Positions 1 to 64,000 of a stretch of 64,000 nucleotides of DNA are shown here, piece by piece. Position 1 is the first letter of the stretch; every line of letters begins with the position of its first letter. This DNA comes from the human T2T-CHM13v2.0 reference genome, Homo sapiens: positions 832,001 to 896,000 of the forward strand of contig CP068257.2 in NCBI GenBank assembly GCA_009914755.4. The letters are read 5' to 3'. The notes beneath the pieces were generated by a model, which made no database searches, was not told the DNA's origin, and saw only the letters and a program-made list of their open reading frames with translations. The translations under genes were made by a program, and so were the position numbers.

Positions 1-913
1 TACACGGCATTGTGACTTATCACTGCACTGATCACCCAGGCGATACAACTCTTGTCTAGGCTCTGCCTACAATGGTCTTGTGACATATCTCTGCACTGAT
101 CACCCAGGTGATATAACTCTTCTCTAGGATCTGACCACGGGGTGCTTTGTGAAATATCCCTGCAATGATCACCCAGGTGATATACCACTTGCCAAGGCTC
201 TGCTTACAGGGGCATTGCAATGTATCTCTGCACTGATCACCTAGGTCTTGTAGCTATTTTCTAGGATCTGCCTACAGGGTGCTTTGTGACGTGTCCCAGC
301 AAAGATTACCCAGGTGATGTACCTCTCACCAAGGCTCTGCCTACAGGCACATTGCGATATATCTCTGCACTGATCACCTAGGTCATGTAACTTTTGTCTA
401 GGCTCTACCTACGATGGTATTGTGACATATCTCTGCACTAATCATCCAAGTGATGTAACACTTGTCTAGGATGTGCCTAAATTAACTTTTTGACATAACC
501 CTGTACTGATCATCCAGGTGATGGGGCTTTTGTCTAGGCTCTGCCTAAGGGGGCATTGTGACATATTTGTGCATTGATCACCCAGGTGGCGAACTCTTCT
601 CTCGGATCTGCCTATGGGGGCATTGTGAGAAATCTCTGCACTGATAACCCAGGTGATGTAACTGTTGTGTAACCTCTGCCTACAGGGGAATTGTGAGAGA
701 TCTCCCCACTGATTACCCAAGTGATGTAACCATTGTCCAGGCTTTGCGTACAGGGGGCTTTGTGACATACCTTTGCACTGATCACCCAGGTGATGTAACA
801 CATCTAAGTTCGGCCTAAAGGAGCTTTGTGACACATCTCTGCACTGATCACTTAGGTGATGTAACACTTTTATAATCACTGCCTACAGGGAATTTTGACA
901 AATCTCTGCACTG

Positions 914-927
914 ATCACCTAGGTGAT
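914..927. other. Perfect 14-bp palindrome ATCACCTAGGTGAT (AvrII site at its centre), the variant form of the core in monomers 4, 6, 13 and 14 of each HOR
   Basis: read directly at 911-930 (ctgatcacctaggtgatgta). Confidence 0.8.
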
Positions 928-1450
928 GTAACTCTTGTCTACCCTCTGTCCAACGGGGCATTGTGAAATATCTCAGCACTGAACACCCAGGTGATTCAAC
1001 TCTTGACTAGGAACTGCCTACAGAGGTTATTGTGAAATATCTCTGCACTGATAAACTAGGTGGTGTAACCCTTGTCCAAGCTCTGCCTACAGGGGCGTTT
1101 CCACATATCCCTGAACTGATGACAAAGGTGATGTAACTCTTGCCTAGGCTTTGCCTACAGGGACATTGGACATATATCTGCACTGATCACCCAGGAGATG
1201 CAACTCTTGCCTAGGCTTTGCCTACAGGGTACTCTGTGACATATCTCTTCAATGACCACTCATGTGATGCATCTCTTGCCTAGGCTTTGCCAACAGGGGA
1301 CATTGTGACATATCTCTGCACTGATCTCCCTGGTACTGTAACTTTAGTCTAGGCTCTGGCTACACGGCATTGTGACATATCACTGCACTGATCAACCAGG
1401 TTATATAACTCTTGTATAGGCTCTGCCTACAGGGGGCTTGTGACCTACCT

Positions 1451-1519
1451 CTGCACTGATCACCCAGGTGATATAACTCTTCTCTAGGATCTGCCTACAG
1501 GGTGCTTTGTGACATATCC
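1451..1519. repeat. Representative single monomer (69 bp), monomer 22 of HOR unit 1, close to the array consensus
   Basis: ctgcactgat begins at 1451 and again at 1520. Confidence 0.85.
1457..1472. other. Example of the conserved per-monomer dyad core TGATCACCCAGGTGAT. It has arms ATCACC/GGTGAT and contains the E-box CAGGTG plus CCAGG and a BclI site. It recurs about 29 times per HOR and about 940 times in the window.
   Basis: read directly; ATCACC is the reverse complement of GGTGAT. Confidence 0.8.
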
Positions 1520-1973
1520 CTGCACTGATCACCCAGGTGACCTAACTCTGGTCTAAGCTCTGCCTAAAGGGGCATTGTGACAGATCTCTGCACTGATCAC
1601 TCAGGTGATGTAACTATTGTCTAGGCTCTGCTTAAAGGGGCCTTGTCACATATCCCTGCACTGATCACCCAGGTGATGTAACTCTTGTCTAGGCTCTGCT
1701 TCCAGGGCATATTGTGACATAACTATGCACTGATCACCTTAGTGATTTAACACTTGTGTAGGCTCGGCCTACAGAGGAATCTTGACATATCTCTGAACTG
1801 TTAAACGAGGTGATTTAACTCTTGTCTAGGCTGTGCCCACAGGGGGATTGAGACATATCTCTGCACTGATCCCGAGGTGATCCAACTCTTGCCTGGTCTC
1901 TGCCTACTGGGGACATTGTGACATATCTCTGCACTGATCTCCCAGGTGCTGTAAATTTTGTCTAGGCTCTGGC

Positions 1974-3946
1974 TACACGGCATTGTGACTTATCACTGCA
2001 CTGATCACCCAGGCGATACAACTATTGTCTAGGCTCTGCCTACAATGGTCTTGTGACATATCTCTGCACTGATCACCCAGGTGATATAACTCTTCTCTAG
2101 GATCTGACCACGGGGTGCTTTGTGAAATATCCCTGCAATGAGCACCCAGGTGATATACCACTTGCCAAGGCTCTGCTTACAGGGGCATTGCAATGTATCT
2201 CTGCACTGATCACCTAGGTCTTGTAGCTATTTTCTAGGATCTGCCTACAGGGGGCTTTGTGACGTGTCCCAGCAAGGATTACCCAGGTGATGTACCTCTC
2301 ATCAAGGCTCTGCCTACAGGCACATTGCGATATATCTCTGCACTGATCACCTAGGTCACGTAACTTTTGTCTAGGCTCTACCTACGATGGTATTGTGACA
2401 TATCTCTGCACTAATCATCCAAGTGATGTAACACTTGTCTAGGATGTGCCTAAATTAACTTTTTGACATAACCCTGTACTGATCATCCAGGTGATGGGGC
2501 TTTTGTCTAGGCTCTGCCTAAGGGGGCATTGTGACATATTTGTGCATTGATCACCCAGGTGGCGAACTCTTCTCTCGGATCTGCCTATGGGGGCATTGTG
2601 AGAAATCTCTGCACTGATCACCCAGGTGATGTAACTGTTGTGTAACCTCTGCCTACAGGGGAATTGTGAGAGATCTCCCCACTGATTACCCAAGTGATGT
2701 AACCATTGTCCAGGCTTTGCGTACAGGGGGCTTTGTGACATACCTTTGCACTGATCACCCAGGTGATGTAACACATCTAAGTTCGGCCTAAAGGAGCTTT
2801 GTGACACATCTCTGCACTGATCACTTAGGTGATGTAACACTTTTATAATCACTGCCTACAGGGAATTTTGACAAATCTCTGCACTGATCACCTAGGTGAT
2901 GTAACTCTTGTCTACCCTCTGTCCAACGGGGCATTGTGAAATATCTCAGCACTGAACACCCAGGTGATTCAACTCTTGACTAGGAACTGCCTACAGAGGT
3001 TATTGTGAAATATCTCTGCACTGATAAACTAGGTGGTGTAACCCTTGTCCAAGCTCTGCCTACAGGGGCGTTTCCACATATCCCTGAACTGATGACAAAG
3101 GTGATGTAACTCTTGCCTAGGCTTTGCCTACAGGGACATTGGACATATATCTGCACTGATCACCCAGGAGATGCAACTCTTGCCTAGGCTTTGCCTACAG
3201 GGTACTCTGTGACATATCTCTTCAATGACCACTCATGTGATGCATCTCTTGCCTAGGCTTTGCCAACAGGGGACATTGTGACATATCTCTGCACTGATCT
3301 CCCTGGTACTGTAACTTTAGTCTAGGCTCTGGCTACACGGCATTGTGACATATCACTGCACTGATCAACCAGGTTATATAACTCTTGTATAGGCTCTGCC
3401 TACAGGGGGCTTGTGACCTACCTCTGCACTGATCACCCAGGTGATATAACTCTTCTCTAGGATCTGCCTACAGGGTGCTTTGTGACATATCCCTGCACTG
3501 ATCACCCAGGTGACCTAACTCTGGTCTAAGCTCTGCCTAAAGGGGCATTGTGACAGATCTCTGCACTGATCACTCAGGTGATGTAACTATTGTCTAGGCT
3601 CTGCTTAAAGGGGCCTTGTCACATATCCCTGCACTGATCACCCAGGTGATGTAACTCTTGTCTAGGCTCTGCTTCCAGGGCATATTGTGACATAACTATG
3701 CACTGATCACCTTAGTGATTTAACACTTGTGTAGGCTCGGCCTACAGAGGAATCTTGACATATCTCTGAACTGTTAAACGAGGTGATTTAACTCTTGTCT
3801 AGGCTGTGCCCACAGGGGGATTGAGACATATCTCTGCACTGATCCCGAGGTGATCCAACTCTTGCCTGGTCTCTGCCTACTGGGGACATTGTGACATATC
3901 TCTGCACTGATCTCCCAGGTGCTGTAAATTTTGTCTAGGCTCTGGC
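1974..3946. repeat. HOR unit 2 (A), 1973 bp
   Basis: tacacgg at 1974; ORF-track peptides repeat at +1973. Confidence 0.9.
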
Positions 3947-5919
3947 TACACGGCATTGTGACTTATCACTGCACTGATCACCCAGGCGATACAACTATTG
4001 TCTAGGCTCTGCCTACAATGGTCTTGTGACATATCTCTGCACTGATCACCCAGGTGATATAACTCTTCTCTAGGATCTGACCACGGGGTGCTTTGTGAAA
4101 TATCCCTGCAATGAGCACCCAGGTGATATACCACTTGCCAAGGCTCTGCTTACAGGGGCATTGCAATGTATCTCTGCACTGATCACCTAGGTCTTGTAGC
4201 TATTTTCTAGGATCTGCCTACAGGGGGCTTTGTGACGTGTCCCAGCAAGGATTACCCAGGTGATGTACCTCTCATCAAGGCTCTGCCTACAGGCACATTG
4301 CGATATATCTCTGCACTGATCACCTAGGTCACGTAACTTTTGTCTAGGCTCTACCTACGATGGTATTGTGACATATCTCTGCACTAATCATCCAAGTGAT
4401 GTAACACTTGTCTAGGATGTGCCTAAATTAACTTTTTGACATAACCCTGTACTGATCATCCAGGTGATGGGGCTTTTGTCTAGGCTCTGCCTAAGGGGGC
4501 ATTGTGACATATTTGTGCATTGATCACCCAGGTGGCGAACTCTTCTCTCGGATCTGCCTATGGGGGCATTGTGAGAAATCTCTGCACTGATCACCCAGGT
4601 GATGTAACTGTTGTGTAACCTCTGCCTACAGGGGAATTGTGAGAGATCTCCCCACTGATTACCCAAGTGATGTAACCATTGTCTAGGCTTTGCGTACAGG
4701 GGGCTTTGTGACATACCTTTGCACTGATCACCCAGGTGATGTAACACATCTAAGTTCGGCCTAAAGGAGCTTTGTGACACATCTCTGCACTGATCACTTA
4801 GGTGATGTAACACTTTTATAATCACTGCCTACAGGGAATTTTGACAAATCTCTGCACTGATCACCTAGGTGATGTAACTCTTGTCTACCCTCTGTCCAAC
4901 GGGGCATTGTGAAATATCTCAGCACTGAACACCCAGGTGATTCAACTCTTGACTAGGAACTGCCTACAGAGGTTATTGTGAAATATCTCTGCACTGATAA
5001 ACTAGGTGGTGTAACCCTTGTCCAAGCTCTGCCTACAGGGGCGTTTCCACATATCCCTGAACTGATGACAAAGGTGATGTAACTCTTGCCTAGGCTTTGC
5101 CTCCAGGGACATTGGACATATATCTGCACTGATCACCCAGGTGATGCAACTCTTGCCTAGGCTTTGCCTACAGGGTACTCTGTGACATATCTCTTCAATG
5201 ACCACTCATGTGATGCATCTCTTGCCTAGGCTTTGCCAACAGGGGACATTGTGACATATCTCTGCACTGATCTCCCTGGTACTGTAACTTTAGTCTAGGC
5301 TCTGGCTACACAGCATTGTGACATATCACTGCACTGATCAACCAGGTTATATAACTCTTGTATAGGCTCTGCCTACAGGGGGCTTGTGACCTACCTCTGC
5401 ACTGATCACCCAGGTGATATAACTCTTCTCTAGGATCTGCCTACAGGGTGCTTTGTGACATATCCCTGCACTGATCACCCAGGTGACCTAACTCTGGTCT
5501 AAGCTCTGCCTAAAGGGGCATTGTGACAGATCTCTGCACTGATCACTCAGGTGATGTAACTATTGTCTAGGCTCTGCTTAAAGGGGCCTTGTCACATATC
5601 CCTGCACTGATCACCCAGGTGATGTAACTCTTGTCTAGGCTCTGCTTCCAGGGCATATTGTGACATAACTATGCACTGATCGCCTTAGTGATTTAACACT
5701 TGTGTAGGCTCGGCCTACAGAGGAATCTTGACATATCTCTGCACTGTTAAACGAGGTGATTTAACTCTTGTCTAGGCTGTGCCCACAGGGGGATTGAGAC
5801 ATATCTCTGCACTGATCCCCAGGTGATCCAACTCTTGCCTGGTCTCTGCCTACTGTGGACATTGTGACATATCTCTGCACTGATCTCCCAGGTGCTGTAA
5901 ATTTTGTCTAGGCTCTGGC
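3947..5919. repeat. HOR unit 3 (A), 1973 bp
   Basis: tacacgg at 3947; ORF periodicity. Confidence 0.9.
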
Positions 5920-7891
5920 TACACGGCATTGTGACTTATCACTGCACTGATCACCCAGGCGATACAACTCTTGTCTAGGCTCTGCCTACAATGGTCTTGT
6001 GATATATCTCTGCACTGATCACCCAGGTGATATAACTCTTCTCTAGGATCTGACCACGGGGTGCTTTGTGACATATCCCTGCAATGATCACCCAGGTGAT
6101 ATACCACTTGCCAAGGCTCTGCTTACAGGGGCATTGCAATGTATCTCTGCACTGATCACCTAGGTCTTGTAGCTATTTTCTAGGATCTGCCTACAGGGTG
6201 CTTTGTGACGGGTACCAGCAAGGATTACCCAGGTGATGTACCTCTCATCAAGGCTCTGCCTACAGGCACATTGCGATATATCTCTGCACTGATCACCAAG
6301 GTCACGTAACTTTCGTCTAGGCTCTACCTACGATGGTATTGTGACATATCTCTGCACTAATCATCCAAGTGATGTAACACTTGTCTAGGATGTGCCTAAA
6401 TTAACTTTTTGACATAACCCTGTACTGATCATCCAGGTGATGGGGCTTTTGTCTAGGCTCTGCCTAAGGGGGCATTGTGACATATTTCTGCATTGATCAC
6501 CCAGGTGGCGAACTCTTCTCTCGGATCTGCCTATGGGGGCATTGGGAGAAATCTCTGCACTGATCACCCAGGTGATGTAACTGTTGTGTAACCTCTGCCT
6601 ACAGGGGAATTGTGAGAGATCTCCCCACTGATTACCCAAGTGATGTAACCATTGTCTAGGCTTTGCGTACAGGGGGCTTTGTGACATACCTTTGCACTGA
6701 TCAACCAGGTGATGTAACACATCTAAGTTCGGCCTAAAGGAGCTTTGTGACACATATCTGCACTGATCACTTAGGTGATGTAACACTTTTATAAGCACTG
6801 CCTACAGGGAATTTTGACAAATCTCTGCACTGATCACCTAGGTGATGTAACTCTTGTCTACCCTCTGTCCAACGGGGCATTGTGAAATATCTCAGCACTG
6901 AACACCCAGGTGATTCAACTCTTGACTAGGAACTGCCTACAGAGGTTATTGTGAAATATCTCTGCACTGATAAACTAGGTGGTGTAACCCTTGTCCAAGC
7001 TCTGCCTACAGGGGCGTTTCCACATATCCCTGAACTGATGACAAAGGTGATGTAACTCTTGCCTAGGCTTTGCCTACAGGGGCATTGGACATATATCTGT
7101 ACTGATCACCCAGGTGATGCAACTCTTGCCTAGGCTTTGCCTACAGGGGACACTGTGACATATCTCTTCAATGATCACTCATGTGATGCATCTCTTGCCT
7201 AGGCTTTGACAACAGGGGACATTGTGACATATCTCTGCACTGATCTCCCTGGTACTGTAACTTTAGTCTAGGCTCTGGCTACACGGCATTGTGACATATC
7301 ACTGCACTGATCAACCAGGTGATATAACTCTTGTATAGGCTCTGCCTACAGGGGGCTTGTGACCTACCTCTGCACTGATCACCCAGGTGATATAACTCTT
7401 CTCTAGGATCTGCCTACAGGGTGCTTTGTGACATATCCCTGCACTGATCACCCAGGTGACTAACTCTGGTCTAAGCTCTGCCTAAAGGGGCATTGTGACA
7501 GATCTCTGCACTGATCACTCAGGTGATGTAACTATTGTCTAGGCTCTGCTTAAAGGGGCCTTGTCACATATCCCTGCACTGATCACCCAGGTGATGTAAC
7601 TCTTGTCTAGGCTCTGCTTCCAGGGCATATTGTGACATAACTATGCACTGATCACCTTAGTGATTTAACACTTGTGTAGGCTCGGCCTACAGAGGAATCT
7701 TGACATATCTCTGAACTGTTAAACGAGGTGATTTAACTCTTGTCTAGGCTGTGCCCACAGGGGGATTGAGACATATCTCTGCACTGATCCCGAGGTGATC
7801 CAACTCTTGCCTGGTCTCTGCCTACTGGGGACATTGTGACATATCTCTGCACTGATCTCCCAGGTGCTGTAAATTTTGTCTAGGCTCTGGC
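5920..7891. repeat. HOR unit 4 (A), 1972 bp, with a 1-bp deletion near 7459 (gtgactaactc instead of gtgacctaactc)
   Basis: tacacgg at 5920 and 7892; variant read directly. Confidence 0.85.
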
Positions 7892-9864
7892 TACACGGCA
7901 TTGTGACTTATCACTGCACTGATCACCCAGGCGATACAACTCTTGTCTAGGCTCTGCCTACAATGGTCTTGTGACATATCTCTGCACTGATCACCCAGGT
8001 GATATAACTCTTCTCTAGGATCTGACCACGGGGTGCTTTGTGAAATATCCCTGCAATGATCACCCAGGTGATATACCACTTGCCAAGGCTCTGCTTACAG
8101 GGGCATTGCAATGTATCTCTGCACTGATCACCTAGGTCTTGTAGCTATTTTCTAGGATCTGCCTACAGGGTGCTTTGTGACGTGTCCCAGCAAAGATTAC
8201 CCAGGTGATGTACCTCTCACCAAGGCTCTGCCTACAGGCACATTGCGATATATCTCTGCACTGATCACCTAGGTCATGTAACTTTTGTCTAGGCTCTACC
8301 TACGATGGTATTGTGACATATCTCTGCACTAATCATCCAAGTGATGTAACACTTGTCTAGGATGTGCCTAAATTAACTTTTTGACATAACCCTGTACTGA
8401 TCATCCAGGTGATGGGGCTTTTGTCTAGGCTCTGCCTAAGGGGGCATTGTGACATATTTGTGCATTGATCACCCAGGTGGCGAACTCTTCTCTCGGATCT
8501 GCCTATGGGGGCATTGTGAGAAATCTCTGCACTGATAACCCAGGTGATGTAACTGTTGTGTAACCTCTGCCTACAGGGGAATTGTGAGAGATCTCCCCAC
8601 TGATTACCCAAGTGATGTAACCATTGTCCAGGCTTTGCGTACAGGGGGCTTTGTGACATACCTTTGCACTGATCACCCAGGTGATGTAACACATCTAAGT
8701 TCGGCCTAAAGGAGCTTTGTGACACATCTCTGCACTGATCACTTAGGTGATGTAACACTTTTATAATCACTGCCTACAGGGAATTTTGACAAATCTCTGC
8801 ACTGATCACCTAGGTGATGTAACTCTTGTCTACCCTCTGTCCAACGGGGCATTGTGAAATATCTCAGCACTGAACACCCAGGTGATTCAACTCTTGACTA
8901 GGAACTGCCTACAGAGGTTATTGTGAAATATCTCTGCACTGATAAACTAGGTGGTGTAACCCTTGTCCAAGCTCTGCCTACAGGGGCGTTTCCACATATC
9001 CCTGAACTGATGACAAAGGTGATGTAACTCTTGCCTAGGCTTTGCCTACAGGGACATTGGACATATATCTGCACTGATCACCCAGGTGATGCAACTCTTG
9101 CCTAGGCTTTGCCTACAGGGTACTCTGTGACATATCTCTTCAATGACCACTCATGTGATGCATCTCTTGCCTAGGCTTTGCCAACAGGGGACATTGTGAC
9201 ATATCTCTGCACTGATCTCCCTGGTACTGTAACTTTAGTCTAGGCTCTGGCTACACGGCATTGTGACATATCACTGCACTGATCAACCAGGTTATATAAC
9301 TCTTGTATAGGCTCTGCCTACAGGGGGCTTGTGACCTACCTCTGCACTGATCACCCAGGTGATATAACTCTTCTCTAGGATCTGCCTACAGGGTGCTTTG
9401 TGACATATCCCTGCACTGATCACCCAGGTGACCTAACTCTGGTCTAAGCTCTGCCTAAAGGGGCATTGTGACAGATCTCTGCACTGATCACTCAGGTGAT
9501 GTAACTATTGTCTAGGCTCTGCTTAAAGGGGCCTTGTCACATATCCCTGCACTGATCACCCAGGTGATGTAACTCTTGTCTAGGCTCTGCTTCCAGGGCA
9601 TATTGTGACATAACTATGCACTGATCACCTTAGTGATTTAACACTTGTGTAGGCTCGGCCTACAGAGGAATCTTGACATATCTCTGAACTGTTAAACGAG
9701 GTGATTTAACTCTTGTCTAGGCTGTGCCCACAGGGGGATTGAGACATATCTCTGCACTGATCCCGAGGTGATCCAACTCTTGCCTGGTCTCTGCCTACTG
9801 GGGACATTGTGACATATCTCTGCACTGATCTCCCAGGTGCTGTAAATTTTGTCTAGGCTCTGGC
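7892..9864. repeat. HOR unit 5 (A), 1973 bp; near-identical to unit 1 (shares ctgataaccc at 8531 and ccattgtccagg at 8631)
   Basis: 137-aa and 63-aa ORF peptides identical to those at 466 and 612. Confidence 0.9.
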
Positions 9865-53677: not shown

Positions 53678-55652
53678 TGCACGGCACTGTGACATATCAC
53701 TGCACTGATCACCCAGATGATATAAATCTTGTCTAGGCTCTGCCTACAATGGCCTTGTGACATATCTCTGCACTGATCACCCAGGTGATATAACTCTTCT
53801 CTAGGATCTGACCACAGGGTGCTTTGTGGCATTTCCCTGCAATAATCACCCAGGTGATATACCACTTGCCAACGCTCTGCCTACAGGGGCATTGCAATGT
53901 ATCTCTGCACTGATCACCTAGGTCTTGTAACTCTTCTCTTCGATCTTCCCTCAGGGTGCTTTTTGACGTATCCCAGCAAGGATTACCCAGGTGATGTACC
54001 TCTCATCAAGGCTCTGCCTACAGGCACATTGCGATATATCTCTGCACTGATAACCTAGGTCATGTAACTTTTGTCTAGGCTCTGCCTACGATGGCATTGT
54101 GACATATCTCTGCACTAATCATCCAAGTGATGTAACCCTTGTCTAGGATCTGCCTAAATTAACTTTGTGACATAACCCTGTACTGATCATCCAGGTGATG
54201 GGGCTTTTGTCTAGGCTCTGCCTAAGGGGGCATTGTGACATATTTCTGCATTGATCACCCAGGTGGCGAACTCTTCTCTTGGATCTGCCTATGGGGGCAT
54301 TGTGACAAATCTCTGCACTCATCACCCAGGTGATGTAACTGTTGTGTAACCTCTGCCTACAGGGGAATTGTGAGAGATCTCGCCACTGATCACCCAAGTG
54401 ATGTAACCATTGTCTAGGCTTTGCGTACAGGGGGCTTTGTGGCATACCTTTGCACTGATCACCCAGGTGATGTAACACATCTATGTTCGGCCTAAAGGAG
54501 CTTTGTGACATATCTCTGCACTGATCACTTAGGTGATGTAACACTTTTATAAGCACTGCCTACAGGGAATTTTGACAAATCTCTGCACTGATCACCTAGG
54601 TGATGTAACGTTTGTCTACCCTCTGTCCAACGGGGCATTGTGAAATATCTCTGCACTGATCACCCAGGTGATTCAACTCTTGACTAGGATCTGCCTACAG
54701 AGGTTATTGTGAAATATCTCTGCACTGATAAACTAGGTGGTGTGACCCTTATCCAAGCTCTGCCTACAGGGGCGTTTTCACATATCCCTGATGTGATGAC
54801 AAAGGTGATGTAACTCTTGCTTAGGCTTTTCCTACAAGGGGACATTGGACATATATCTGCACTGATCACCCAGGTCATGCAACTCTTGCCTAAGCTTTGC
54901 CTACAGGGGACATTGTGACATATCGCTTCAATGATCACCCATGTGATGCAACTCTTGCCTAGGCTTTGCCTACAGGGGACATTGTGACATATCTCTGCAC
55001 TGATCTCCCAGGTGCTGTAACTTTAGTCTAGACTCTGGCTACACGGTATTGTGACATATCACTGCACTGATCAACCAGGTGATATAACTCTTGTCTAGGC
55101 TCTGCCTACAGGGGGCTTGTGACATATCTCTGCACTGATCACCCAGGTGATATAACTCTTCTCTAGGATCTGCCTACAGGGTGCTTTGTGACATATCCCT
55201 GCAATGATCACCCAGGTGATCTAACTCTGGTTTAATCTCTGCCTAAAGGGGCATTGTGACAGATCTCTGCACTGATCACTCAGGTGATGAAACTATTGTC
55301 TAGGCTCTGCTTAAAGGGGCCTTTTCACATATCTCTGCAATGATCACCCAGGTGATGTAACTCTTGTCTAGCCTCTGCTTCCACGGCATATTGTGACATA
55401 TCTATGCACTGATCACCTTAGTGATGTAACACTTGTGTAGGCTCGGCCTACAGGGGAATATTGACATATCTCTGCACTGTTAACCGAGGTGATTTAATTC
55501 TTGTCTAGGCTGTGCCCACAGGGGGATTGAGACATATCTCTGCACTGATCCCGAGGTGATCCAACTGTTGCCTGGTCTCTGCCTACTGGGGACATTGTGA
55601 CATATCTCTGCACTGATCTCCCAGGTGCTGTAACTTTAGTCTAGGTTCTGGC
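53678..55652. repeat. HOR unit 28 (B, subtype B1), 1975 bp
   Basis: tgcacgg at 53678; 84-aa ORF at 54684; acgtttgtctacc at about 54608. Confidence 0.88.
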
Positions 55653-57625
55653 TACACGGCATTGCGACATATCACTGCACTGATCACCCAGGTGATATAA
55701 ATCTTGTCTAGGCTCTGCCTAAAATGGCCTTGTGACATATCTCTGCACTGATCACCCAGGTGATGTAACTCTTCTCTAGGTTCTGACCACAGGGTGCTTT
55801 GTGGCATTGCCCTGCAATGATCACCCAGGTGATATACCATTTGCCAACGCTCTGCCTACAGGGGCATTGCAATGTATCTCTGCACTGATCACCTAGGTCT
55901 TGTAACTTTTTTCTTCGATCTGCCCTCAGGGTGCTTTTTGACGTATCCCAGCAAGGATTACCCAGGTGATGTACGTCTCATCATTCTCTGCCTACAGGCA
56001 CATTGCGATGTATCTCTGCACTGATCACCTAGGTCATGTAACTTTTGTCTAGGCTCTGCCTACGATGACATTGTGACATATCTCTGCACTAATCATCCAA
56101 GTGATGTAACCCTTGTCTAGGATCTCCCTAAATTAACTTTGTGACATAACCCTGTACTGATCATCCAGGTGATGGGGCTTTTGTCTAGGCTCTGCCTAAG
56201 GGGGCATTGTGACATATTTCTGCATTGATCACCCAGGTGGCGAACTCTTCTCTTGGATCTGCCTATGGGGGCATTGTGACAAATCTCTGCACTGATCACC
56301 CAGGTGATGTAACTGTTGTGTAACCTCTGCCTACAGGGGAATTGTGAGAGATCTCGCCACTGATCACCCAAGTGATGTAACCATTGTCTAGGCTTTGCGT
56401 ACAGGGGGCTTTGTGACATACTTTTGCACTGATCACCCAGGTGATGTAACACATCTAAGTTCGGCCTAAAGGAGCTTTGTGACATATCTCTGCACTGATC
56501 ACTTAGGTGATGTAACACTTTTATAAGCACTGCCTACAGGGAATTTTGACAAATCTCTGCACTGATCACCTAGGTGATGTAACGCTTGTCTACCCTCTGT
56601 CCAACGGCGCATTGTGAAATATCTCTGCACTGATCACCCAGGTGATTCAACTCTTGACTAGGATCTGCCTACAGAGGTTATTGTGAAATATCTCTGCACT
56701 GATAAACTAGGTGGTGTAACCCTTATCCAAGCTCTGCCTACAGGGGCGTTTTCACATATCCCTGAAGTGATGACAAAGGTGATGTAACTCTTGCCTAGGC
56801 TTTGCCTACAGGGGACTTTGGACATATATCTGCACTGATCACCCAGGTGATGCAACTCTTGCCTAGGCTTTGCCTACAGGGGACATTGTGACATATCGCT
56901 TCAATGATCACCCATGTGATGCAACTCTTGCCTAGGCTTTGCCTACAGGGGACATTGTGACATATCTCTGCACTGATCTCCCAGGTGCTGTAACTTTAGT
57001 CTAGACTCTGGCTACACGGCATTGTGACATATCACTGCACTGATCAACCAGGTGATATAACTCTTGTCTAGGCTCTGCCTACAGGGGGCTTGTGACATAT
57101 CTCTGCACTGATCACCCAGGTGATATAACTCTTCTCTAGGATCTGCCTACCGGGTGCTTTGTGACATATCCCTGCAATGATCACCCAGGTGATCTAACTC
57201 TGGTTTAAGCTCTGCCTAAAGGGGCATTGTGACAGATCTCTGCACTGATCACTCAGGTGATGAAACTATTGTCTAGGCTCTGCTTAAAGGGGCCTTGTCA
57301 CATATCTCTGCAATGATCACCCAGGTGAAGTAACTCTTGTCTAGCCTCTGCTTTCGCGGCATATTGTGACATATCTATGCACTGATCACCTTAGTGATGT
57401 AACACTTGTGTAGGCTCGGCCTACAGGGGAATATTGACCTATCTCTGCACTGTTAACCGAGGTGATTTAACTCTTGTCTAGGCTGTGCCCACAGGGGGAT
57501 TGAGACATATCTCTGCACTGATCCCGAGGTGATCCAACTGTTGCCTGGTCTCTGCCTACTGGTGACATTGTGACATATCTCTGCACTGATCTCCCAGGTG
57601 ATGTAACTTTAGTCTAGGCTCTGGC
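55653..57625. repeat. HOR unit 29 (B, subtype B2), 1973 bp
   Basis: 65-aa ORF at 56658; acgcttgtctacc; caacggcgcattg. Confidence 0.88.
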
Positions 57626-59600
57626 TACACGGCATTGTGACATATCACTGCACTGATCACCCAGGTGATACAAATCTTGTCTAGGCTCTGCCTACAATGA
57701 CTTTGTGACATATCTCTGCACTGATGACCCAGGTGATATAACTCTTCTCTAGGATCTGACCACAGGGTGCTTTGTGGCATTTCCCTGCAATGATCACCCA
57801 GGTGATATACCACTTGCCAACGCTCTGCCTACAGGGGCATTGCAATGTATCTCTGCACTGATCACCTAGGTCTTGTAACTCTTTTCTTCGATCTGCCCTC
57901 AGGGTGCTTTTTGACGTATCCCAGCAAGGATTACCCAGGTGATGTACCTCTCATCAAGGCTCTGCCTACAGGCACATTGCGATGTATCTCTGCACTGATC
58001 ACCTAGGTCATGTAACTTTTGTCTAGGCTCTGCCTACGATGGCATTGTGACATATCTCTGCACTAATCATCCAAGTGATGTAACCCTTGTCTAGGATCTG
58101 CCTAAATTAACTTTGTGACATAACCCTGTACTGATCATCCAGGTGATGGGGCTTTTGTCTAGGCTCTGCCTGAGGGGGCATTGTGACATATTTCTGCATT
58201 GATCACCCAGGTGGCGAACTCTTCTCTTGGATCTGCCTATGGGGGCATTGTGACAAATCTCTGCACTGATCACCCAGGTGATGTAACTGTTGTGTAACCT
58301 CTGCCTACAGGGGAATTGTGAGAGATCTCGCCACTGATCACCCAAGTGATGTAACCATTGTCTAGGCTTTGCGTACAGGGGGCTTTGTGGCATACCTTTG
58401 CACTGATCACCCAGGTGATGTAACACATCTATGTTCGGCCTAAAGGAGCTTTGTGACATATCTCTGCACTGATCACTTAGGTGATGTAACACTTTTATAA
58501 GCACTGCCTACAGGGAATTTTGACAAATCTCTGCACTGATCACCTAGGAGATGTAACGTTTGTCTACCCTCTGTCCAACGGGGCATTGTGAAATATCTCT
58601 GCACTGATCACCCAGGTGATTCAACTCTTGACTAGGATCTGCCTACAGAGGTTATTGTGAAATATCTCTGCACTGATAAACTAGGTGGTGTAACCCTTAT
58701 CCAAGCTCTGCCTACAGGGGCGTTTTCACATATCCCTGATGTGATGACAAAGGTGATGTAACTCTTGCTTAGGCTTTTCCTACAAGGGGACATTGGACAT
58801 ATATCTGCACTGATCACCCAGGTGATGCAACTCTTGCCTAAGCTTTGCCTACAGGGGACATTGTGACATATCGCTTCAATGATCACCCATGTGATGCAAC
58901 TCTTTCCTAGGCTTTGCCTACAGGGGACATTGTGACATATCTCTGCACTGATCTCCCAGGTGCTGTAACTTTAGTCTAGACTCTGGCTACACGGTATTGT
59001 GACATATCACTGCACTGATCAACCAGGTGATATAACTCTTGTCTAGGCTCTGCCTACAGGGGGCTTGTGACATATCTCTGCACTGATCACCCAGGTGATA
59101 TAACTCTTCTCTAGGATCTGCCTACAGGGTGCTTTGTGACATATCCCTGCAATGATCACCCAGGTGATCTAACTCTGGTTTAATCTCTGCCTAAAGGGGC
59201 ATTGTGACAGATCTCTACACTGATCACTCAGGTGATGAAACTATTGTCTAGGCTCTGCTTAAAGGGGCCTTTTCACATATCTCTGCAATGATCACCCAGG
59301 TGATGTAACTCTTGTCTAGCCTCTGCTTCCACGGCATATTGTGACATATCTATGCACTGATCACCTTAGTGATGTAACACTTGTGTAGGCTCGGCCTTCA
59401 GGGGAATATTGACATATCTCTGCACTGTTAACCGAGGTGATTTAATTCTTGTCTAGGCTGTGCCCACAGGGGGATTGAGACATATCTCTGCACTGATCCC
59501 GAGGTGATCCAACTGTTGCCTGGTCTCTGCCTACTGGGGACATTGTGACATATCTCTGCACTGATCTCCCAGGTGCTGTAACTTTAGTCTAGGCTCTGGC
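57626..59600. repeat. HOR unit 30 (B, subtype B1), 1975 bp
   Basis: peptides at 58091 and 58632 match those at 54143 and 54684. Confidence 0.88.
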
Positions 59601-61574
59601 TACACGGCATTGCGACATATCACTGCACTGATCACCCAGGTGATATAAATCTTGTCTAGGCTCTGCCTAAAATGGCCTTGTGACATATCTCTGCACTGAT
59701 CACCCAGGTGATGTAACTCTTCTCTAGGATCTGACCACAGGGTGCTTTGTGGCATTGCCCTGCAATGATCACCCAGGTGATATACCATTTGCCAACGCTC
59801 TGCCTACAGGGGCATTGCAATGTATCTCTGCACTGATCACCTAGGTCTTGTAACTTTTTTCTTCGATCTGCCCTCAGGGTGCTTTTTGACGTATCCCAGC
59901 AAGGATTACCCAGGTGATGTACGTCTCATCAAGGCTCTGCCTACAGGCACATTGCGATGTATCTCTGCACTGATCACCTAGGTCATGTAACTTTTGTCTA
60001 GGCTCTGCCTACGATGACATTGTGACATATCTCTGCACTAATCATCCAAGTGATGTAACCCTTGTCTAGGATCTCCCTAAATTAACTTTGTGACATAACC
60101 CTGTACTGATCATCCAGGTGATGGGGCTTTTGTCTAGGCTCTGCCTAAGGGGGCATTGTGACATATTTCTGCATTGATCACCCAGGTGGCGAACTCTTCT
60201 CTTGGATCTGCCTATGGGGGCATTGTGACAAATCTCTGCACTGATCACCCAGGTGATGTAACTGTTGTGTAACCTCTGCCTACAGGGGAATTGTGAGAGA
60301 TCTCGCCACTGATCACCCAAGTGATGTAACCATTGTCTAGGCTTTGCGTACAGGGGGCTTTGTGACATACCTTTGCACTGATCACCCAGGTGATGTAACA
60401 CATCTAAGTTCGGCCTAAAGGAGCTTTGTGACATATCTCTGCACTGATCACTTAGGTGATGTAACACTTTTATAAGCACTGCCTACAGGGAATTTTGACA
60501 AATCTCTGCACTGATCACCTAGGTGATGTAACGCTTGTCTACCCTCTGTCCAACGGCGCATTGTGAAATATCTCTGCACTGATCACCCAGGTGATTCAAC
60601 TCTTGACTAGGATCTGCCTACAGAGGTTATTGTGAAATATCTCTGCACTGATAAACTAGGTGGTGTAACCCTTATCCAAGCTCTGCCTACAGGGGCGTTT
60701 TCACATATCCCTGAAGTGATGACAAAGGTGATGTAACTCTTGCCTAGGCTTTGCCTACAGGGGACTTTGGACATATATCTGCACTGATCACCCAGGTGAT
60801 GCAACTCTTGCCTAGGCTTTGCCTACAGGGGACATTGTGACATATCGCTTCAATGATCACCCATGTGATGCAACTCTTGCCTAGGCTTTGCCTACAGGGG
60901 ACATTGTGACATATCTCTGCACTGATCTCCCAGGTGCTGTAACTTTAGTCTAGACTCTGGCTACACGGCATTGTGACATATCACTGCACTGATCAACCAG
61001 GTGATATAACTCTTGTCTAGGCTCTGCCTACAGGGGGCTTGTGACATATCTCTGCACTGATCACCCAGGTGATATAACTCTTCTCTAGGATCTGCCTACC
61101 GGGTGCTTTGTGACATATACCTGCAATGATCACCCAGGTGATCTAACTCTGGTTTAAGCTCTGCCTAAAGGGGCATTGTGACAGATCTCTGCACTGATCA
61201 CTCAGGTGATGAAACTATTGTCTAGGCTCTGCTTAAAGGGGCCTTGTCACATATCTCTGCAATGATCACCCAGGTGAAGTAACTCTTGTCTAGCCTCTGC
61301 TTTCGCGGCATATTGTGACATATCTATGCACTGATCACCTTAGTGATGTAACACTTGTGTAGGCTCGGCCTACAGGGGAATATTGACATATCTCTGCACT
61401 GTTAACCGAGGTGATTTAACTCTTGTCTAGGCTGTGCCCACAGGGGGATTGAGACATATCTCTGCACTGATCCCGAGGTGATCCAACTGTTGCCTGGTCT
61501 CTGCCTACTGGTGACATTGTGACATATCTCTGCACTGATCTCCCAGGTGATGTAACTTTAGTCTAGGCTCTGGC
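59601..61574. repeat. HOR unit 31 (B, subtype B2), 1974 bp
   Basis: peptides at 59600, 60066 and 60607 match those at 55652, 56117 and 56658. Confidence 0.88.
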
Positions 61575-63548
61575 TACACGGCATTGTGACATATCACTGC
61601 ACTGATCACCCAGGTGATATAAATCTTGTCTAGGCTCTGCCTGCAATGACTTTGTGACATATCTCTGCACTGATGACCCAGGTGATATAACTCTTCTCTA
61701 GGATCTGACCACAGGGTGCTTTGTGGCATTTCCCTGCAATGATCACCCAGGTGATATACCACTTGCCAACGCTCTGCCTACAGGGGCATTGCAATGTATC
61801 TCTGCACTGATCACCTAGGTCTTGTAACTCTTTTCTTCGATCTTCCCTCAGGGTGCTTTTTGACGTATCCCAGCAAGGATTACCCAGGTGATGTACCTCT
61901 CATCAAGGCTCTGCCTACAGGCACATTGCGATGTATCTCTGCACTGATCACCTAGGTCATGTAACTTTTGTCTAGGCTCTGCCTACGATGGCATTGTGAC
62001 ATATCTCTGCACTAATCATCCAAGTGATGTAACACTTGTCTAGGATCTGCCTAAATTAACTTTGTGACATAACCCTGTACTGATCATCCAGGTGATGGGG
62101 CTTTTGTCTAGGCTCTGCCTAAGGGGGCATTGTGACATATTTCTGCATTGATCACCCAGGTGGCGAACTCTTCTCTTGGATCTGCCTATGGGGGCATTGT
62201 GACAAATCTCTGCACTGATCACCCAGGTGATGTAACTGTTGTGTAACCTCTGCCTACAGGGGAATTGTGAGAGATCTCGCCACTGATCACCCAAGTGATG
62301 TAACCATTGTCTAGGCTTTGCGTACAGGGGGCTTTGTGGCATACCTTTGCACTGATCACCCAGGTGATGTAACACATCTAAGTTCGGCCTAATGGAGCTT
62401 TGTGACATATCTCTGCACTGATCACTTAGGTGATGTAACACTTTTATAAGCACTGCCTACAGGGAATTTTGACAAATCTCTGCACTGATCACCTAGGTGA
62501 TGTAACGTTTGTCTACCCTCTGTCCAACGGGGCATTGTGAAATATCTCTGCACTGATCACCCAGGTGATTCAACTCTTGACTAGGATCTGCCTACAGAGG
62601 TTATTGTGAAATATCTCTGCACTGATAAACTAGGTGGTGTAACCCTTATCCAAGCTCTGCCTACAGGGGCGTTTTCACATATCCCTGAAGTGATGACAAA
62701 GGTGATGTAACTCTTGCCTAGGCTTTGCCTACAGGGGACAGTGGACATATATCTGCACTGATCACCCAGGTGATGCAACTCTAGCCTAGGCTTTGCCTAC
62801 AGGGGACATTGTGACATATCGCTTCAATGATCACCCGTGTGATGCAACTCTTGCCTAGGCTTTGCCTACAGGGGACATTGTGACATATCTCTGCACTGAT
62901 CTCCCAGGTGCTGTAACTTTAGTCTAGACACTGGCTACACGGCATTGTGACATATCACTGCACTGATCAACCAGGTGATATAACTCTTGTCTAGGCTCTG
63001 CCTACAGGGGGCTTGTGACATATCTCTGCACTGATCACCCAGGTGATATAACTCTTCTCTAGGATCTGCCTACAGGGTGCTTTGTGACATATCCCTGCAA
63101 TGATCACCCAGGTGATCTAACTCTGGTTTAAGCTCTGCCTAAAGGGGCATTGTGACAGATCTCTGCACTGATCACTCAGGTGATGTAACTATTGTCTAGG
63201 CTCTGCTTAAAGGGGCCTTGTCACATATCTCTGCAATGATCACCCAGGTGATGTAACTCTTGTCTAGCCTCTGCTTTCACGGCATATTGTGACATATCTA
63301 TGCACTGATCACCTTAGTGATGTAACACTTGTGTAGGCTCGGCCTACAGGGGAATATTGACATATCTCTGCACTGTTAACCGAGGTGATTTAACTCTTGT
63401 CTAGGCTGTGCCCACAGGGGGATTGAGACATACCTCTGCACTGATCCCGAGGTGATCCAACTGTTGCCTGGTCTCTGCCTACTGGGGACATTGTGACATA
63501 TCTCTGCACTGATCTCCCAGGTGCTGTAACTTTAGTCTAGGCTCTGGC
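61575..63548. repeat. HOR unit 32 (B, mosaic of B1 and B2 characters), 1974 bp
   Basis: carries acgtttgtctacc (B1-like) but the 65-aa ORF at 62581 (B2-like). Confidence 0.85.
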
Positions 63549-64000
63549 TACACGGCATTGCGACATATCACTGCACTGATCACCCAGGTGATATAAATCT
63601 TGTCTAGGCTCTGCCTAAAATGGCCTTGTGACATATCTCTGCACTGATCACCCAGGTGATGTAACTCTTCTCTAGGATATGACCACAGGGTGCTTTGTGG
63701 CATTGCCCTGCAATGATCACCCAGGTGGTATACCATTTGCCAACGCTCTGCCTACAGGGGCATTGCAATGTATCTCTGCACTGATCACCTAGGTCTTGTA
63801 ACTTTTTTCTTCGATCTGCCCTCAGGGTGCTTTTTGACGTATCCCAGCAAGGATTACCCAGGTGATGTACGTCTCATCAAGGCTCTGCCTACAGGCACAT
63901 TGCGATGTATCTCTGCACTGATCACCTAGGTCATGTAACTTTTGTCTAGGCTCTGCCTACGATGACATTGTGACATATCTCTGCACTAATCATCCAAGTG
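63549..64000. repeat. HOR unit 33 (B), partial, first 452 bp only; array continues beyond window
   Basis: tacacgg at 63549; sequence mirrors 55653-56104 and 59601-60052. Confidence 0.85.

What the first reader, a model, noticed from the sequence alone, without database searches (positions are those of the whole stretch)
1..64000. 64 kb of pure 68-bp satellite organised as a 29-monomer, 1973-bp higher-order repeat
- Monomers within one HOR differ from each other substantially.
- Whole HOR copies are nearly identical to their neighbours.
- This is the classical signature of an actively homogenising (peri)centromeric satellite, like alpha-satellite HORs but with a short monomer.
- There is no unique sequence, transposon or gene anywhere in the window.
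- I do not recognise the monomer as a named satellite family.
Basis: seen in the sequence. Interest (0 to 1): 0.6.

Follow-up and report, generated by a model that had tools for sequence, protein, structure and literature searches.

The report
Human beta satellite higher-order repeat array
The window is an uninterrupted stretch of primate (almost certainly human) beta satellite, a 68-bp "Sau3A" repeat known since the 1980s, arranged as a 29-monomer, 1973-bp higher-order repeat; the description is correct but the element is ordinary and already catalogued.

Summary
Observation confirmed. The window holds 941 head-to-tail ~68-bp monomers, all on one strand with no interruption. They form 32 complete higher-order repeat (HOR) copies: 27 x 29-mers (1972-1975 bp), 3 x 28-mers, one 32-mer and one 35-mer. 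Monomers within a HOR are ~75% alike; adjacent HOR copies are ~98.5% alike.

It is beta satellite (the Sau3A family): 68-bp unit, about one GATC site per monomer, 47% GC, multimeric HORs. The same HOR, with the same monomer order at 94-98% identity, turns up in contigs named as human-skin metagenomes and as low-coverage contaminant contigs in unrelated bacterial assemblies. In 70 of 102 related contigs the same monomer family abuts a 2.76-kb LSau/D4Z4-like unit carrying the human DUX4 C-terminus. That is the published beta-composite architecture. A 28-monomer, 1906-bp beta-satellite HOR is already described on distal acrocentric short arms of T2T-CHM13.

Hybrid junction monomers, multi-HOR block duplications and a sharp boundary between two HOR haplotypes show homogenisation by out-of-register recombination. 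There are no CENP-B boxes, genes or RNAs. "Centromeric, like alpha satellite" is an analogy, not a membership.

Verdict: already known; low interest. One unexplained aside is a 2:1 transversion excess among young copies.

The parts
1..5 (+). Last 5 bases (TACAC) of the preceding monomer (HOR position 29); the array continues beyond the left edge of the window
   Evidence: the first 5 bases equal the end of m29
6..64000 (+). Uninterrupted beta-satellite array: 941 monomers of ~68 bp, single orientation, continuing beyond the right edge of the window
6..1978 (+). Reference HOR copy H01: 29 monomers, 1973 bp. Monomers m20-m23 are paralogous to m29-m3 (94/88/91/82% against a ~75% background), an old internal duplication
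6..52660 (+). HOR haplotype domain A: H01-H26 plus the 5' part of H27; copies 97.5-99.95% identical to each other
52661..64000 (+). HOR haplotype domain B: the 3' part of H27, H28-H32 and 7 trailing monomers. About 95.1% identical to domain A and 97.8-99.7% within itself; 59 diagnostic sites
1979..13815 (+). Three-HOR block duplication: H02-H03-H04 is nearly the same as H05-H06-H07 (0.4%, 0.1% and 0.3% divergence at lag 5918/5919)
19735..23543 (+). Two adjacent 28-mer HOR copies (H11 1904 bp, H12 1905 bp). Each has one m21(5')/m22(3') hybrid monomer, at 21094-21162 and 22999-23067
27490..29871 (+). 35-mer HOR copy (H15, 2382 bp). A hybrid m25/m19 monomer at 29123-29191 is followed by a second copy of m20-m25 (29192-29600)
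41709..43613 (+). 28-mer HOR copy (H22, 1905 bp) with an m21/m22 hybrid monomer at 43069-43137. Its crossover point differs from that in H11/H12
51505..53682 (+). 32-mer HOR copy (H27, 2178 bp) with m15-m17 duplicated. The hybrid m18/m15 monomer at 52661-52728 coincides with the switch from A-type to B-type diagnostic sites
53683..61579 (+). Two-HOR block duplication in domain B: H28-H29 is close to H30-H31 (1.0% and 0.3% divergence; lag 3948/3949)

Best explanation
The window is an internal piece of a 'simple' beta-satellite array, meaning one not interspersed with LSau elements. Beta satellite is also known as the Sau3A family (BSR/Beta in repeat libraries, from my own knowledge). The source is a hominoid genome, most probably human.

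The array is non-coding constitutive heterochromatin. It is kept as a 29-monomer, 1973-bp HOR by repeated out-of-register recombination (unequal crossing-over and/or gene conversion), acting at two scales:
- Between neighbouring or paralogous monomers, which produces the 28-, 32- and 35-mers with hybrid junction monomers.
- Between whole HOR units offset by 2-4 copies, which produces the block duplications.

Two HOR haplotypes about 5% apart are joined at a single out-of-register crossover.

The most likely chromosomal setting is the distal short arm of an acrocentric chromosome. Near-identical BSat arrays are shared among chromosomes 13, 14, 15, 21 and 22 there, and exchange between those chromosomes is thought to homogenise them.

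What is shown: the anatomy, the family identity, the human provenance of identical HOR copies, and the recombination footprints. What is inferred: the chromosomal location, the heterochromatic and methylated state, and the absence of a sequence-specific function.
For: Family features:
- 68-bp unit.
- GATC present in 78% of monomers; 932 sites for 940 monomers; 64% of bases fall in 68n-bp Sau3A ladder fragments.
- 47.1% GC, against 47.0-50.3% for published subgroups.
- HOR organisation, matching the published definition.

Provenance:
- The 27-nt core occurs in 21 tiny, low-coverage contigs of unrelated bacterial and archaeal assemblies. Five of these match this HOR in register at 96.2-98.3%.
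- An m21-specific 21-mer finds 102 metagenome contigs, several of them named 'human-skin-metagenome'.
- L100, L093, L043, L081 and L077 match at 95-98% and reproduce the monomer order 1 to 29.

Name anchor:
- 70 of the 102 related contigs join monomers of this family to a 2.76-kb, 65%-GC unit.
- The ORF of that unit contains GLLLDELLASPEFLQQ and EEEYRALLEE, which are published human DUX4 peptides.
- This is the LSau/beta-composite architecture described for beta satellite.
- Primers for a human 19p12 SNP tile a diverged monomer, with the extension primer matching 20 of 21 bases.

Published HOR:
- 28 monomers, 1906 bp, 77% monomer identity, at chr22:1.53-1.61 Mb and chr15:0.58-0.64 Mb in T2T-CHM13. 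The window has 28-mer variants of 1904/1905 bp and 75% monomer identity.
- The distal acrocentric arms share a BSat block at more than 90% identity.

Mechanism:
- Hybrid monomers are found at every variant junction.
- H27 is a clean A-to-B recombinant at its duplication junction.
- Multi-HOR block duplications are present.
- CpG observed/expected is 0.165, consistent with the dense CpG methylation reported for beta satellite.

No coding or RNA content was found.
Against: - No reference beta-satellite sequence (pB3/pB4, Repbase BSR, T2T coordinates) could be aligned directly. The name rests on defining features plus association with D4Z4/LSau and human provenance.
- The published acrocentric HOR is a 28-mer of 1906 bp, whereas the dominant unit here is a 29-mer. 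Identity with it is inferred only from size, monomer number and monomer divergence. The two published arrays (59 and 74 kb of 28-mers) cannot themselves be this window.
- Published beta-satellite GC is 52% overall, against 47% here. This is explicable if the overall figure includes the 65%-GC LSau composites, but I did not verify that.
- The best external match is 98.3%, not 100%, so another great ape is not excluded.
Confidence: 0.9

Rival explanations
1. The array is beta satellite but lies at a non-acrocentric site, for example the pericentromeric blocks of chromosomes 1, 3, 9 or Y, so the reader's word '(peri)centromeric' would be literally right.
For: [quoted passage not shown] The only published HOR I could compare is a 28-mer, not the 29-mer that dominates here. 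The window itself holds no flanking sequence.
Against: - The size, monomer number and monomer divergence of the window's 28-mer variants match the acrocentric HOR.
- Close relatives of this HOR (93.5-94%) abut LSau/D4Z4-like units. From my own knowledge these are abundant on acrocentric short arms, although they also occur elsewhere.
- The same HOR was recovered many times at 94-98%, with both 28- and 29-mer variants. That fits a multi-chromosome family.
Confidence: 0.25
2. The window comes from a non-human great ape (chimpanzee, bonobo, gorilla or orangutan) whose beta-satellite HOR is related to the human one.
For: Beta satellite with Sau3A 68-bp ladders and linked D4Z4 exists in chimpanzee. 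The best match to presumably human contaminant DNA is 98.3%, not 100%.
Against: - In-register HOR matches of 96-98% over 0.5-3.2 kb occur in contigs explicitly named human skin metagenome or carrying the related ENA accession prefixes.
- That divergence lies inside the range seen within the window itself: 0.05-2.5% within a domain and 5% between domains.
Confidence: 0.12
3. It is a functional, kinetochore-forming centromeric satellite that works like active alpha-satellite HOR arrays.
For: HOR organisation with very high inter-copy identity is the hallmark of active alpha-satellite arrays.
Against: - No CENP-B box: one 1-mismatch hit, against 0.94 expected by chance.
- No excess dyad or hairpin propensity: z-scores from -0.84 to +0.51.
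- The monomer is 68 bp, not 171 bp.
- The literature assigns kinetochore association to active alpha satellite only.
Confidence: 0.03
4. The regular structure is an assembly or simulation artefact and not real genomic sequence.
For: Extreme regularity. The transition:transversion ratio among copies is close to the 1:2 expected from random errors.
Against: - Independent short-read contigs from many unrelated projects reproduce the same monomers in the same order, including the 29-mer arrangement.
- They show the same transversion excess relative to the window.
- Variants are shared between copies in block patterns.
- Junction monomers are clean hybrids.
Confidence: 0.02

Closest known systems
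Human beta satellite (Sau3A family; Meneveri 1985, Waye & Willard 1989), 'simple array' class of the T2T-CHM13 cenSat annotation
   Same: 68-bp monomer, about one GATC site per monomer, ~47% GC, multimeric HORs, human provenance, and the same monomer family next to LSau/D4Z4 units in related loci (literature).
   Different: Nothing that was tested differs. A direct alignment to a reference consensus could not be made with these tools.
1906-bp, 28-monomer beta-satellite HOR on T2T-CHM13 chr22:1,531,778-1,606,098 and chr15:579,188-638,269 (SRF paper, PMC10760446)
   Same: Same monomer family. Monomer identity is 77% there and 75% here. The window holds three 28-mer copies of 1904-1905 bp, and independent human contigs also show 28-mer variants.
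   Different: The dominant unit here has one more monomer (29; 1973 bp). Sequence identity to the published unit could not be checked. Which monomer the published 28-mer lacks is unknown.
Alpha-satellite higher-order repeat arrays
   Same: Diverged monomers nested in near-identical multimers. Structural variants arise by out-of-register crossover. There are distinct HOR haplotype domains and local block expansions.
   Different: The monomer is 68 bp rather than 171 bp and is unrelated in sequence. There is no CENP-B box. This satellite is not the site of kinetochore assembly in humans.
LSau-beta satellite composite arrays / D4Z4-linked beta satellite (4q35, 10q26, acrocentrics)
   Same: Same monomer family. 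Contigs 93.5-94% identical to this HOR start from an LSau unit.
   Different: The window contains no LSau/D4Z4 unit at all, so it belongs to the simple class and not the composite class.

Membership tests
Beta satellite (Sau3A family) | Tandem monomer of ~68 bp | tested here: met
   TRF period 68, 940.5 copies; 941 monomers with spacing 65-70 bp, mode 68
Beta satellite (Sau3A family) | Sau3A (GATC) site in nearly every unit, giving a 68-bp ladder on digestion | tested here: met
   GATC is present in 734 of 940 monomers, with 932 sites in total. The in-silico digest places 64% of bases in 68/136/204/272-bp fragments, and the rest are split by secondary GATC sites.
Beta satellite (Sau3A family) | Monomers organised in multimeric higher-order repeats | tested here: met
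   29-monomer, 1973-bp HOR. Adjacent copies are 98.5% identical, against 75% between monomers.
Beta satellite (Sau3A family) | Relatively G+C-rich satellite (published subgroups 47.0-50.3%; 52% for all arrays) | tested here: met
   47.1% GC, uniform across the window, compared with the figures
Beta satellite (Sau3A family) | Sequence homology to the reference monomer (pB3/pB4 clones, Repbase/Dfam BSR) | not testable with these tools
   No reference sequence was available. The primary papers are not held, and no printed consensus was found. Indirect anchors are the DUX4/LSau association and the human 19p12 primers.
Beta satellite (Sau3A family) | Resident of hominoid (human) genomes | tested here: met
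   The same HOR at 94-98% occurs in contigs named human-skin-metagenome and in low-coverage contaminant contigs of unrelated bacterial assemblies. There are no matches in the plasmid, phage or viral collections. This test does not exclude another great ape.
Beta satellite (Sau3A family) | Members of the family occur interspersed with LSau/D4Z4 elements (beta-composite arrays) | tested here: met
   This was tested in related loci, not in the window. 70 of 102 loci carry a 2.76-kb LSau-like unit bearing the DUX4 C-terminus next to these monomers.
Acrocentric distal-short-arm 28-mer beta-satellite HOR (SRF contig, 1906 bp) | Unit of 28 monomers, 1906 bp, ~77% monomer identity | tested here: inconclusive
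   The dominant unit is 29 monomers and 1973 bp. Three copies are 28-mers of 1904-1905 bp, and monomer identity is 75%.
Acrocentric distal-short-arm 28-mer beta-satellite HOR (SRF contig, 1906 bp) | At least 98% sequence identity to the published contig, or location at chr22:1.53 Mb / chr15:0.58 Mb | not testable with these tools
   The sequence is not in the paper text, and no supplement is held.
Alpha satellite / kinetochore-forming centromeric HOR satellite | ~171-bp monomer | tested here: not met
   Period 68
Alpha satellite / kinetochore-forming centromeric HOR satellite | CENP-B box (TTCGNNNNANNCGGG) in a subset of monomers | tested here: not met
   No exact match; one 1-mismatch match, against 0.94 expected by chance
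Alpha satellite / kinetochore-forming centromeric HOR satellite | CENP-A nucleosome occupancy | not testable with these tools
   This needs chromatin data. The literature assigns it to active alpha satellite only.

The most novel reading that the evidence does not exclude
Young variants that distinguish near-identical HOR copies are about 2:1 transversions to transitions. The usual mammalian ratio is close to 1:2 (my own knowledge). The same bias appears in independent human copies of this HOR and, at non-CpG sites, in the linked LSau units. If genuine, it would point to a distinct mutational or repair process, for example recombination-associated error-prone synthesis or oxidative damage in late-replicating, nucleolus-associated heterochromatin. 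Such a process would be acting on acrocentric short-arm satellites. In addition, the 29-mer might be a chromosome- or population-specific HOR variant that has not been explicitly described.
Probability: 0.2. Interest if true: 0.4.

Novelty: already known. Interest (0 to 1): 0.1.

Why it matters
It matters little as a discovery. Beta satellite and its HOR organisation have been known since 1985-1989 and are fully assembled and annotated in T2T-CHM13, and a near-identical 28-mer HOR has been described explicitly.

The window is nonetheless a clean textbook example of satellite homogenisation. Every structural variant carries a hybrid junction monomer, and a haplotype boundary coincides with an out-of-register crossover.

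There are two practical by-products:
1. Many public bacterial and metagenome assemblies contain this human satellite as contamination, and at least one contig is a bacterial-human chimera. That bears on published claims of horizontal transfer of beta satellite.
2. The transversion-rich variant spectrum is a small, testable oddity.

Tried and rejected
- **Printed reference sequences.** I searched paper full text for exact k-mers from the consensus. One search gave no hits. The other gave a single hit, a human ZNF208/19p12 SNP primer. This was useful only as an indirect anchor.
- **Primary papers.** Waye & Willard 1989, Eichler 1998 and Cardone 2004 are not held. The SRF paper has no supplement held.
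- **A wasted search.** A loose literature query using 'BSR' returned only plant bulked-segregant papers.
- **Flanking context from L093.** Rejected. Its 6.7-kb 'flank' is bacterial (GlyA-like and dehydrogenase-like ORFs), and one ORF fuses bacterial and satellite sequence. The contig is therefore a chimera.
- **Alu/7SL or other RNA landmarks.** Rfam found nothing in the related loci or in the window.
- **Coding potential.** The recurrent 137-aa and shorter minus-strand ORFs have no Pfam match. The 137-aa ORF is not on record as a called gene. 68 is not a multiple of 3. I treat these ORFs as chance.
- **DUX4-like ORF.** No Pfam or PDB hit. It was identified through exact matches to published DUX4 peptides instead.
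- **Gene conversion from paralogous monomers as the cause of the transversion excess.** Enrichment was only weak, 121 observed against 114.7 expected, so it is not accepted.
- **Compensating-indel artefact as the cause.** Rejected, because isolated variants still give 105 tv: 56 ts.
- **Conserved protein-binding box.** The ATCACC-CA-GGTGAT palindrome is present in only 5 of 29 monomers and the CAGGTG E-box in 13 of 29. Not supported.
- **Excess DNA secondary structure.** None.
- **Apparent high divergence of H15**. This was a multiple-alignment artefact.

Full report
**1. What is in the window**

Tandem Repeats Finder reports a single array from 6 to 64000 with period 68, 940.5 copies and 75% matches. 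Its consensus is GGCATTGTGACATATCTCTGCACTGATCACCCAGGTGATGTAACTCTTGTCTAGGCTCTGCCTACAGG. Base composition is flat at 47% GC across the window.

Self-identity over all lags from 1 to 12000 peaks at 1973 (0.725), then at 3946 and 5919. Lag 68 gives 0.477. In 500-bp blocks the identity at lag 1973 is 0.97-1.00 over most of the window. Where it drops, another lag takes over: 1972/1974/1975, 1904/1905, 2178 or 2382.

A profile search with the consensus finds 941 monomers, all on the + strand, with start spacing of 65-70 bp, so nothing interrupts the array. I labelled each monomer by its best match among the first 29. This gives 32 complete HOR copies plus 7 trailing monomers:
- 27 copies are 29-mers of 1972-1975 bp.
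- H11, H12 and H22 are 28-mers.
- H15 is a 35-mer.
- H27 is a 32-mer.

Monomers within a HOR are on average 75.2% identical, range 61.8-94.0%. Adjacent HOR copies are on average 98.5% identical, range 96.2-99.65%.

**2. Fine structure and what it says about mechanism**

The copy-by-copy divergence matrix and pairwise re-alignment show two HOR haplotype domains:
- Domain A (H01-H26) is 97.5-99.95% identical internally.
- Domain B (H28-H32) is 97.8-99.7% identical internally.
- A and B are 95.1% identical to each other.

At 59 diagnostic sites, H27 is A-type through monomer 17 and B-type from monomer 19 onward. The switch falls exactly where H27 carries its extra m15-m17. The junction monomer there (52661-52728) is an m18(5')/m15(3') hybrid.

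The other variant copies show the same kind of footprint:
- The three 28-mers each contain one m21(5')/m22(3') hybrid monomer. There are at least two different crossover points, one in H11/H12 and another in H22.
- The 35-mer contains an m25/m19 hybrid followed by a second m20-m25.

Whole-HOR block duplications are also visible. H02-03-04 is nearly the same as H05-06-07 (0.1-0.4% divergence). H28-29 is close to H30-31 (0.3-1.0%).

Inside the unit, m20-m23 are paralogous to m29-m3 (94, 88, 91 and 82%, against a background of about 75%). This is an old partial duplication that explains the secondary autocorrelation peaks at 613 and 1360 bp.

These are the classical footprints of out-of-register recombination at both the monomer scale and the HOR scale. 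That process both generates structural variants and homogenises the array. The footprints are shown directly. Which partners exchange (sister chromatids, homologues or different chromosomes) is inferred.

**3. What it is not**

- No tRNA, Rfam family or Pfam domain is present.
- The recurrent minus-strand ORFs (up to 137 aa) have no family match and are not on record as called genes. The period of 68 is not a multiple of three.
- There is no CENP-B box. One 1-mismatch hit was found, against 0.94 expected by chance.
- There is no excess single-strand folding, with z-scores from -0.84 to +0.51.
- The core near-palindrome ATCACC-CA-GGTGAT is exact in only 5 of 29 monomers, and the CAGGTG E-box is present in 13 of 29. 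I see no evidence for a selected binding site.
- The unit has no match in the plasmid, phage or viral collections.

**4. Family identity**

The literature defines beta satellite, originally named the Sau3A family, by these features:
- tandem 68-bp monomers;
- a Sau3A site in nearly every unit, giving a 68-bp ladder on digestion;
- relatively high GC;
- organisation in multimeric HORs;
- location on all acrocentric chromosomes and on chromosomes 1, 3, 9, 19 and Y.

Each sequence-testable feature is met here:
- The period is 68 bp.
- GATC is present in 78% of monomers, with 932 sites for 940 monomers and 64% of bases in 68n-bp fragments.
- GC is 47.1%, against 47.0-50.3% for published subgroups.
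- The monomers form a HOR.

I could not align a reference consensus, because the primary papers are not held. I therefore sought sequence-level anchors elsewhere.

First, the 27-nt core occurs in 21 very short, very low-coverage contigs of taxonomically unrelated bacterial and archaeal draft genomes, which is a contamination signature. Five of these match this particular HOR in register at 96.2-98.3% over 0.5-1.35 kb.

Second, an m21-specific 21-mer finds 102 metagenome contigs, several of them explicitly named 'human-skin-metagenome'. L100, L093, L043, L081 and L077 match the HOR at 95-98% and reproduce the monomer order. They include full 29-mer arrangements as well as 28-mer variants written '...28 20 2 3...'.

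Third, 70 of those 102 contigs join monomers of this family to a 2.76-kb, 64.7%-GC element. Its ORF contains GLLLDELLASPEFLQQ and EEEYRALLEE. Both are exact matches to published human DUX4 C-terminal peptides (PMC8990217). This is the LSau/D4Z4 'beta-composite' architecture that the T2T centromere paper describes for beta satellite. In L079, L076 and L114 such a unit leads, through a few degenerate monomers, into a HOR 93.5-94% identical to this one.

Fourth, the primers of a human 19p12 (ZNF208) SNP assay tile one diverged monomer, with the extension primer matching 20 of 21 bases. 19p12 is a region known for beta-satellite structures, according to the title of Eichler 1998 as cited.

Together these results place the window in beta satellite and in a human or very closely related genome.

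**5. Closest published description and likely location**

The SRF paper reports that in T2T-CHM13 the 68-bp beta satellite assembles into a 1906-bp unit of 28 monomers at 77% monomer identity. That unit is repeated 39 times at chr22:1,531,778-1,606,098 and 31 times at chr15:579,188-638,269, at 98% identity or more.

The window's three 28-mers are 1904-1905 bp and its monomer identity is 75%. Its dominant unit is that size plus one monomer.

The T2T genome paper describes a BSat block as part of the conserved telomere-to-rDNA pattern of all five acrocentric short arms. Satellite arrays there are more than 90% identical within and between chromosomes, and similarity between the arms is attributed to ectopic recombination.

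I therefore infer, with roughly 65% confidence, a distal acrocentric short-arm origin, perhaps on a chromosome or haplotype where the 29-mer predominates. This is an inference from size and architecture, not a mapped location.

The window is of the 'simple array' class, since it contains no LSau unit. Unlike many beta-satellite arrays, it contains no inversion.

**6. How it works**

The best-supported account is that this is non-coding constitutive heterochromatin with no sequence-specific function. It is propagated and kept homogeneous by unequal crossing-over and gene conversion.

CpG observed/expected is 0.165. That fits long-term germline methylation and agrees with the dense CpG methylation reported for beta satellite. 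It is not the kinetochore-forming satellite.

**7. An unexplained aside**

Among the 19 canonical domain-A copies, variants relative to the consensus are 116 transversions to 56 transitions at non-CpG sites. The bias is similar for singleton variants (72:38) and shared variants (45:23), and for isolated variants (105:56).

Independent contigs compared with the window show the same direction of bias: 122:62, and 353:257 at non-CpG sites.

LSau copies processed with the same pipeline show transitions dominating at CpG sites (3385:1513). At non-CpG sites they again show transversions in excess (4264:2891).

Import of bases from paralogous monomers explains little of this, with 121 observed against 114.7 expected. 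I have no established explanation.

**8. Verdict**

It is wrong in treating the monomer as unnamed, and its '(peri)centromeric' placement is unproven. The element is a member of a long-known, fully catalogued human satellite family. Novelty: already known. Interest: low.

Noticed in passing
window 6-52660 (19 canonical domain-A HOR copies); also L001, L002, L007, L011-L013, L018 and the same-HOR metagenome loci: Variants among near-identical HOR copies are transversion-rich: 116 tv to 56 ts at non-CpG sites, and 105:56 for isolated variants, with C>A the commonest change. Independent human copies compared with the window show the same direction. So do LSau units at non-CpG sites, whereas their CpG sites show the normal transition excess.
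   Followed up: partly
L001-L021 (GTDB genome contigs); L093 (OLDW01000434.1) 1-8041: Human beta satellite is present as short, low-coverage contigs in 21 unrelated bacterial and archaeal draft genomes. L093 is a chimeric contig joining about 6.7 kb of bacterial genes to this HOR, and one ORF (6364-6804) fuses the two. This is relevant to published claims that beta satellite has been horizontally transferred to non-primates.
   Followed up: partly
L033 3285-6049 (and 69 other loci, e.g. L046 526-3292, L048 3343-6124 and 7891-10671, L079 423-3188): A recurrent 2.76-kb, 64.7%-GC LSau/D4Z4-like unit lies between beta-satellite monomers. Its minus-strand ORF (L033 3991-4770) ends with the human DUX4 9aaTAD and KIX-binding motifs. 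Copies are 84-93% identical to one another.
   Followed up: partly
L079, L076, L114 (first ~0.4-1.6 kb and the following monomers): Array edges: an LSau unit is followed by 4-9 degenerate monomers and then by the regular HOR (entering at m9-m12 or m23) at 93.5-94% identity to the window. Arrays of this HOR family therefore abut LSau elements somewhere in the genome.
   Followed up: partly
L031, L041, L052, L055, L087, L102: Monomer strand switches occur within single contigs (for example 50 plus and 19 minus in L031, 68 plus and 22 minus in L102). This agrees with the many inversions reported for beta-satellite arrays. The 64-kb window has none.
   Followed up: no
window 6-1978 (monomers m20-m23 against m29-m3): An old internal duplication of 3-4 monomers at a distance of 9 monomers (94/88/91/82% identity) produces the secondary autocorrelation peaks at 613 and 1360 bp. 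In some independent contigs m21/m22 are labelled as m1/m2, which suggests conversion between the two paralogous segments.
   Followed up: partly
Literature: PMC5762523, Table 2 (not in the window): The assay primers for rs8105767, the ZNF208/19p12 SNP reported in telomere-length GWAS, tile one diverged beta-satellite monomer. The SNP therefore appears to lie inside a beta-satellite repeat.
   Followed up: partly
window, monomer positions ~24-41 (e.g. 97-114): The core contains the near-palindrome ATCACC-CA-GGTGAT with an E-box (CAGGTG) and the TGATCA/Sau3A site. The exact palindrome is present in only 5 of 29 HOR positions and the E-box in 13 of 29, so conservation is modest.
   Followed up: yes
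window 466-879 minus strand, repeated once per HOR; L093 7050-7463: A 137-aa ORF recurs in each HOR copy and, with a few substitutions, in an independent contig. It has no Pfam match and is not on record as a called gene. It is most likely a chance ORF preserved only because the HOR copies are near-identical.
   Followed up: yes
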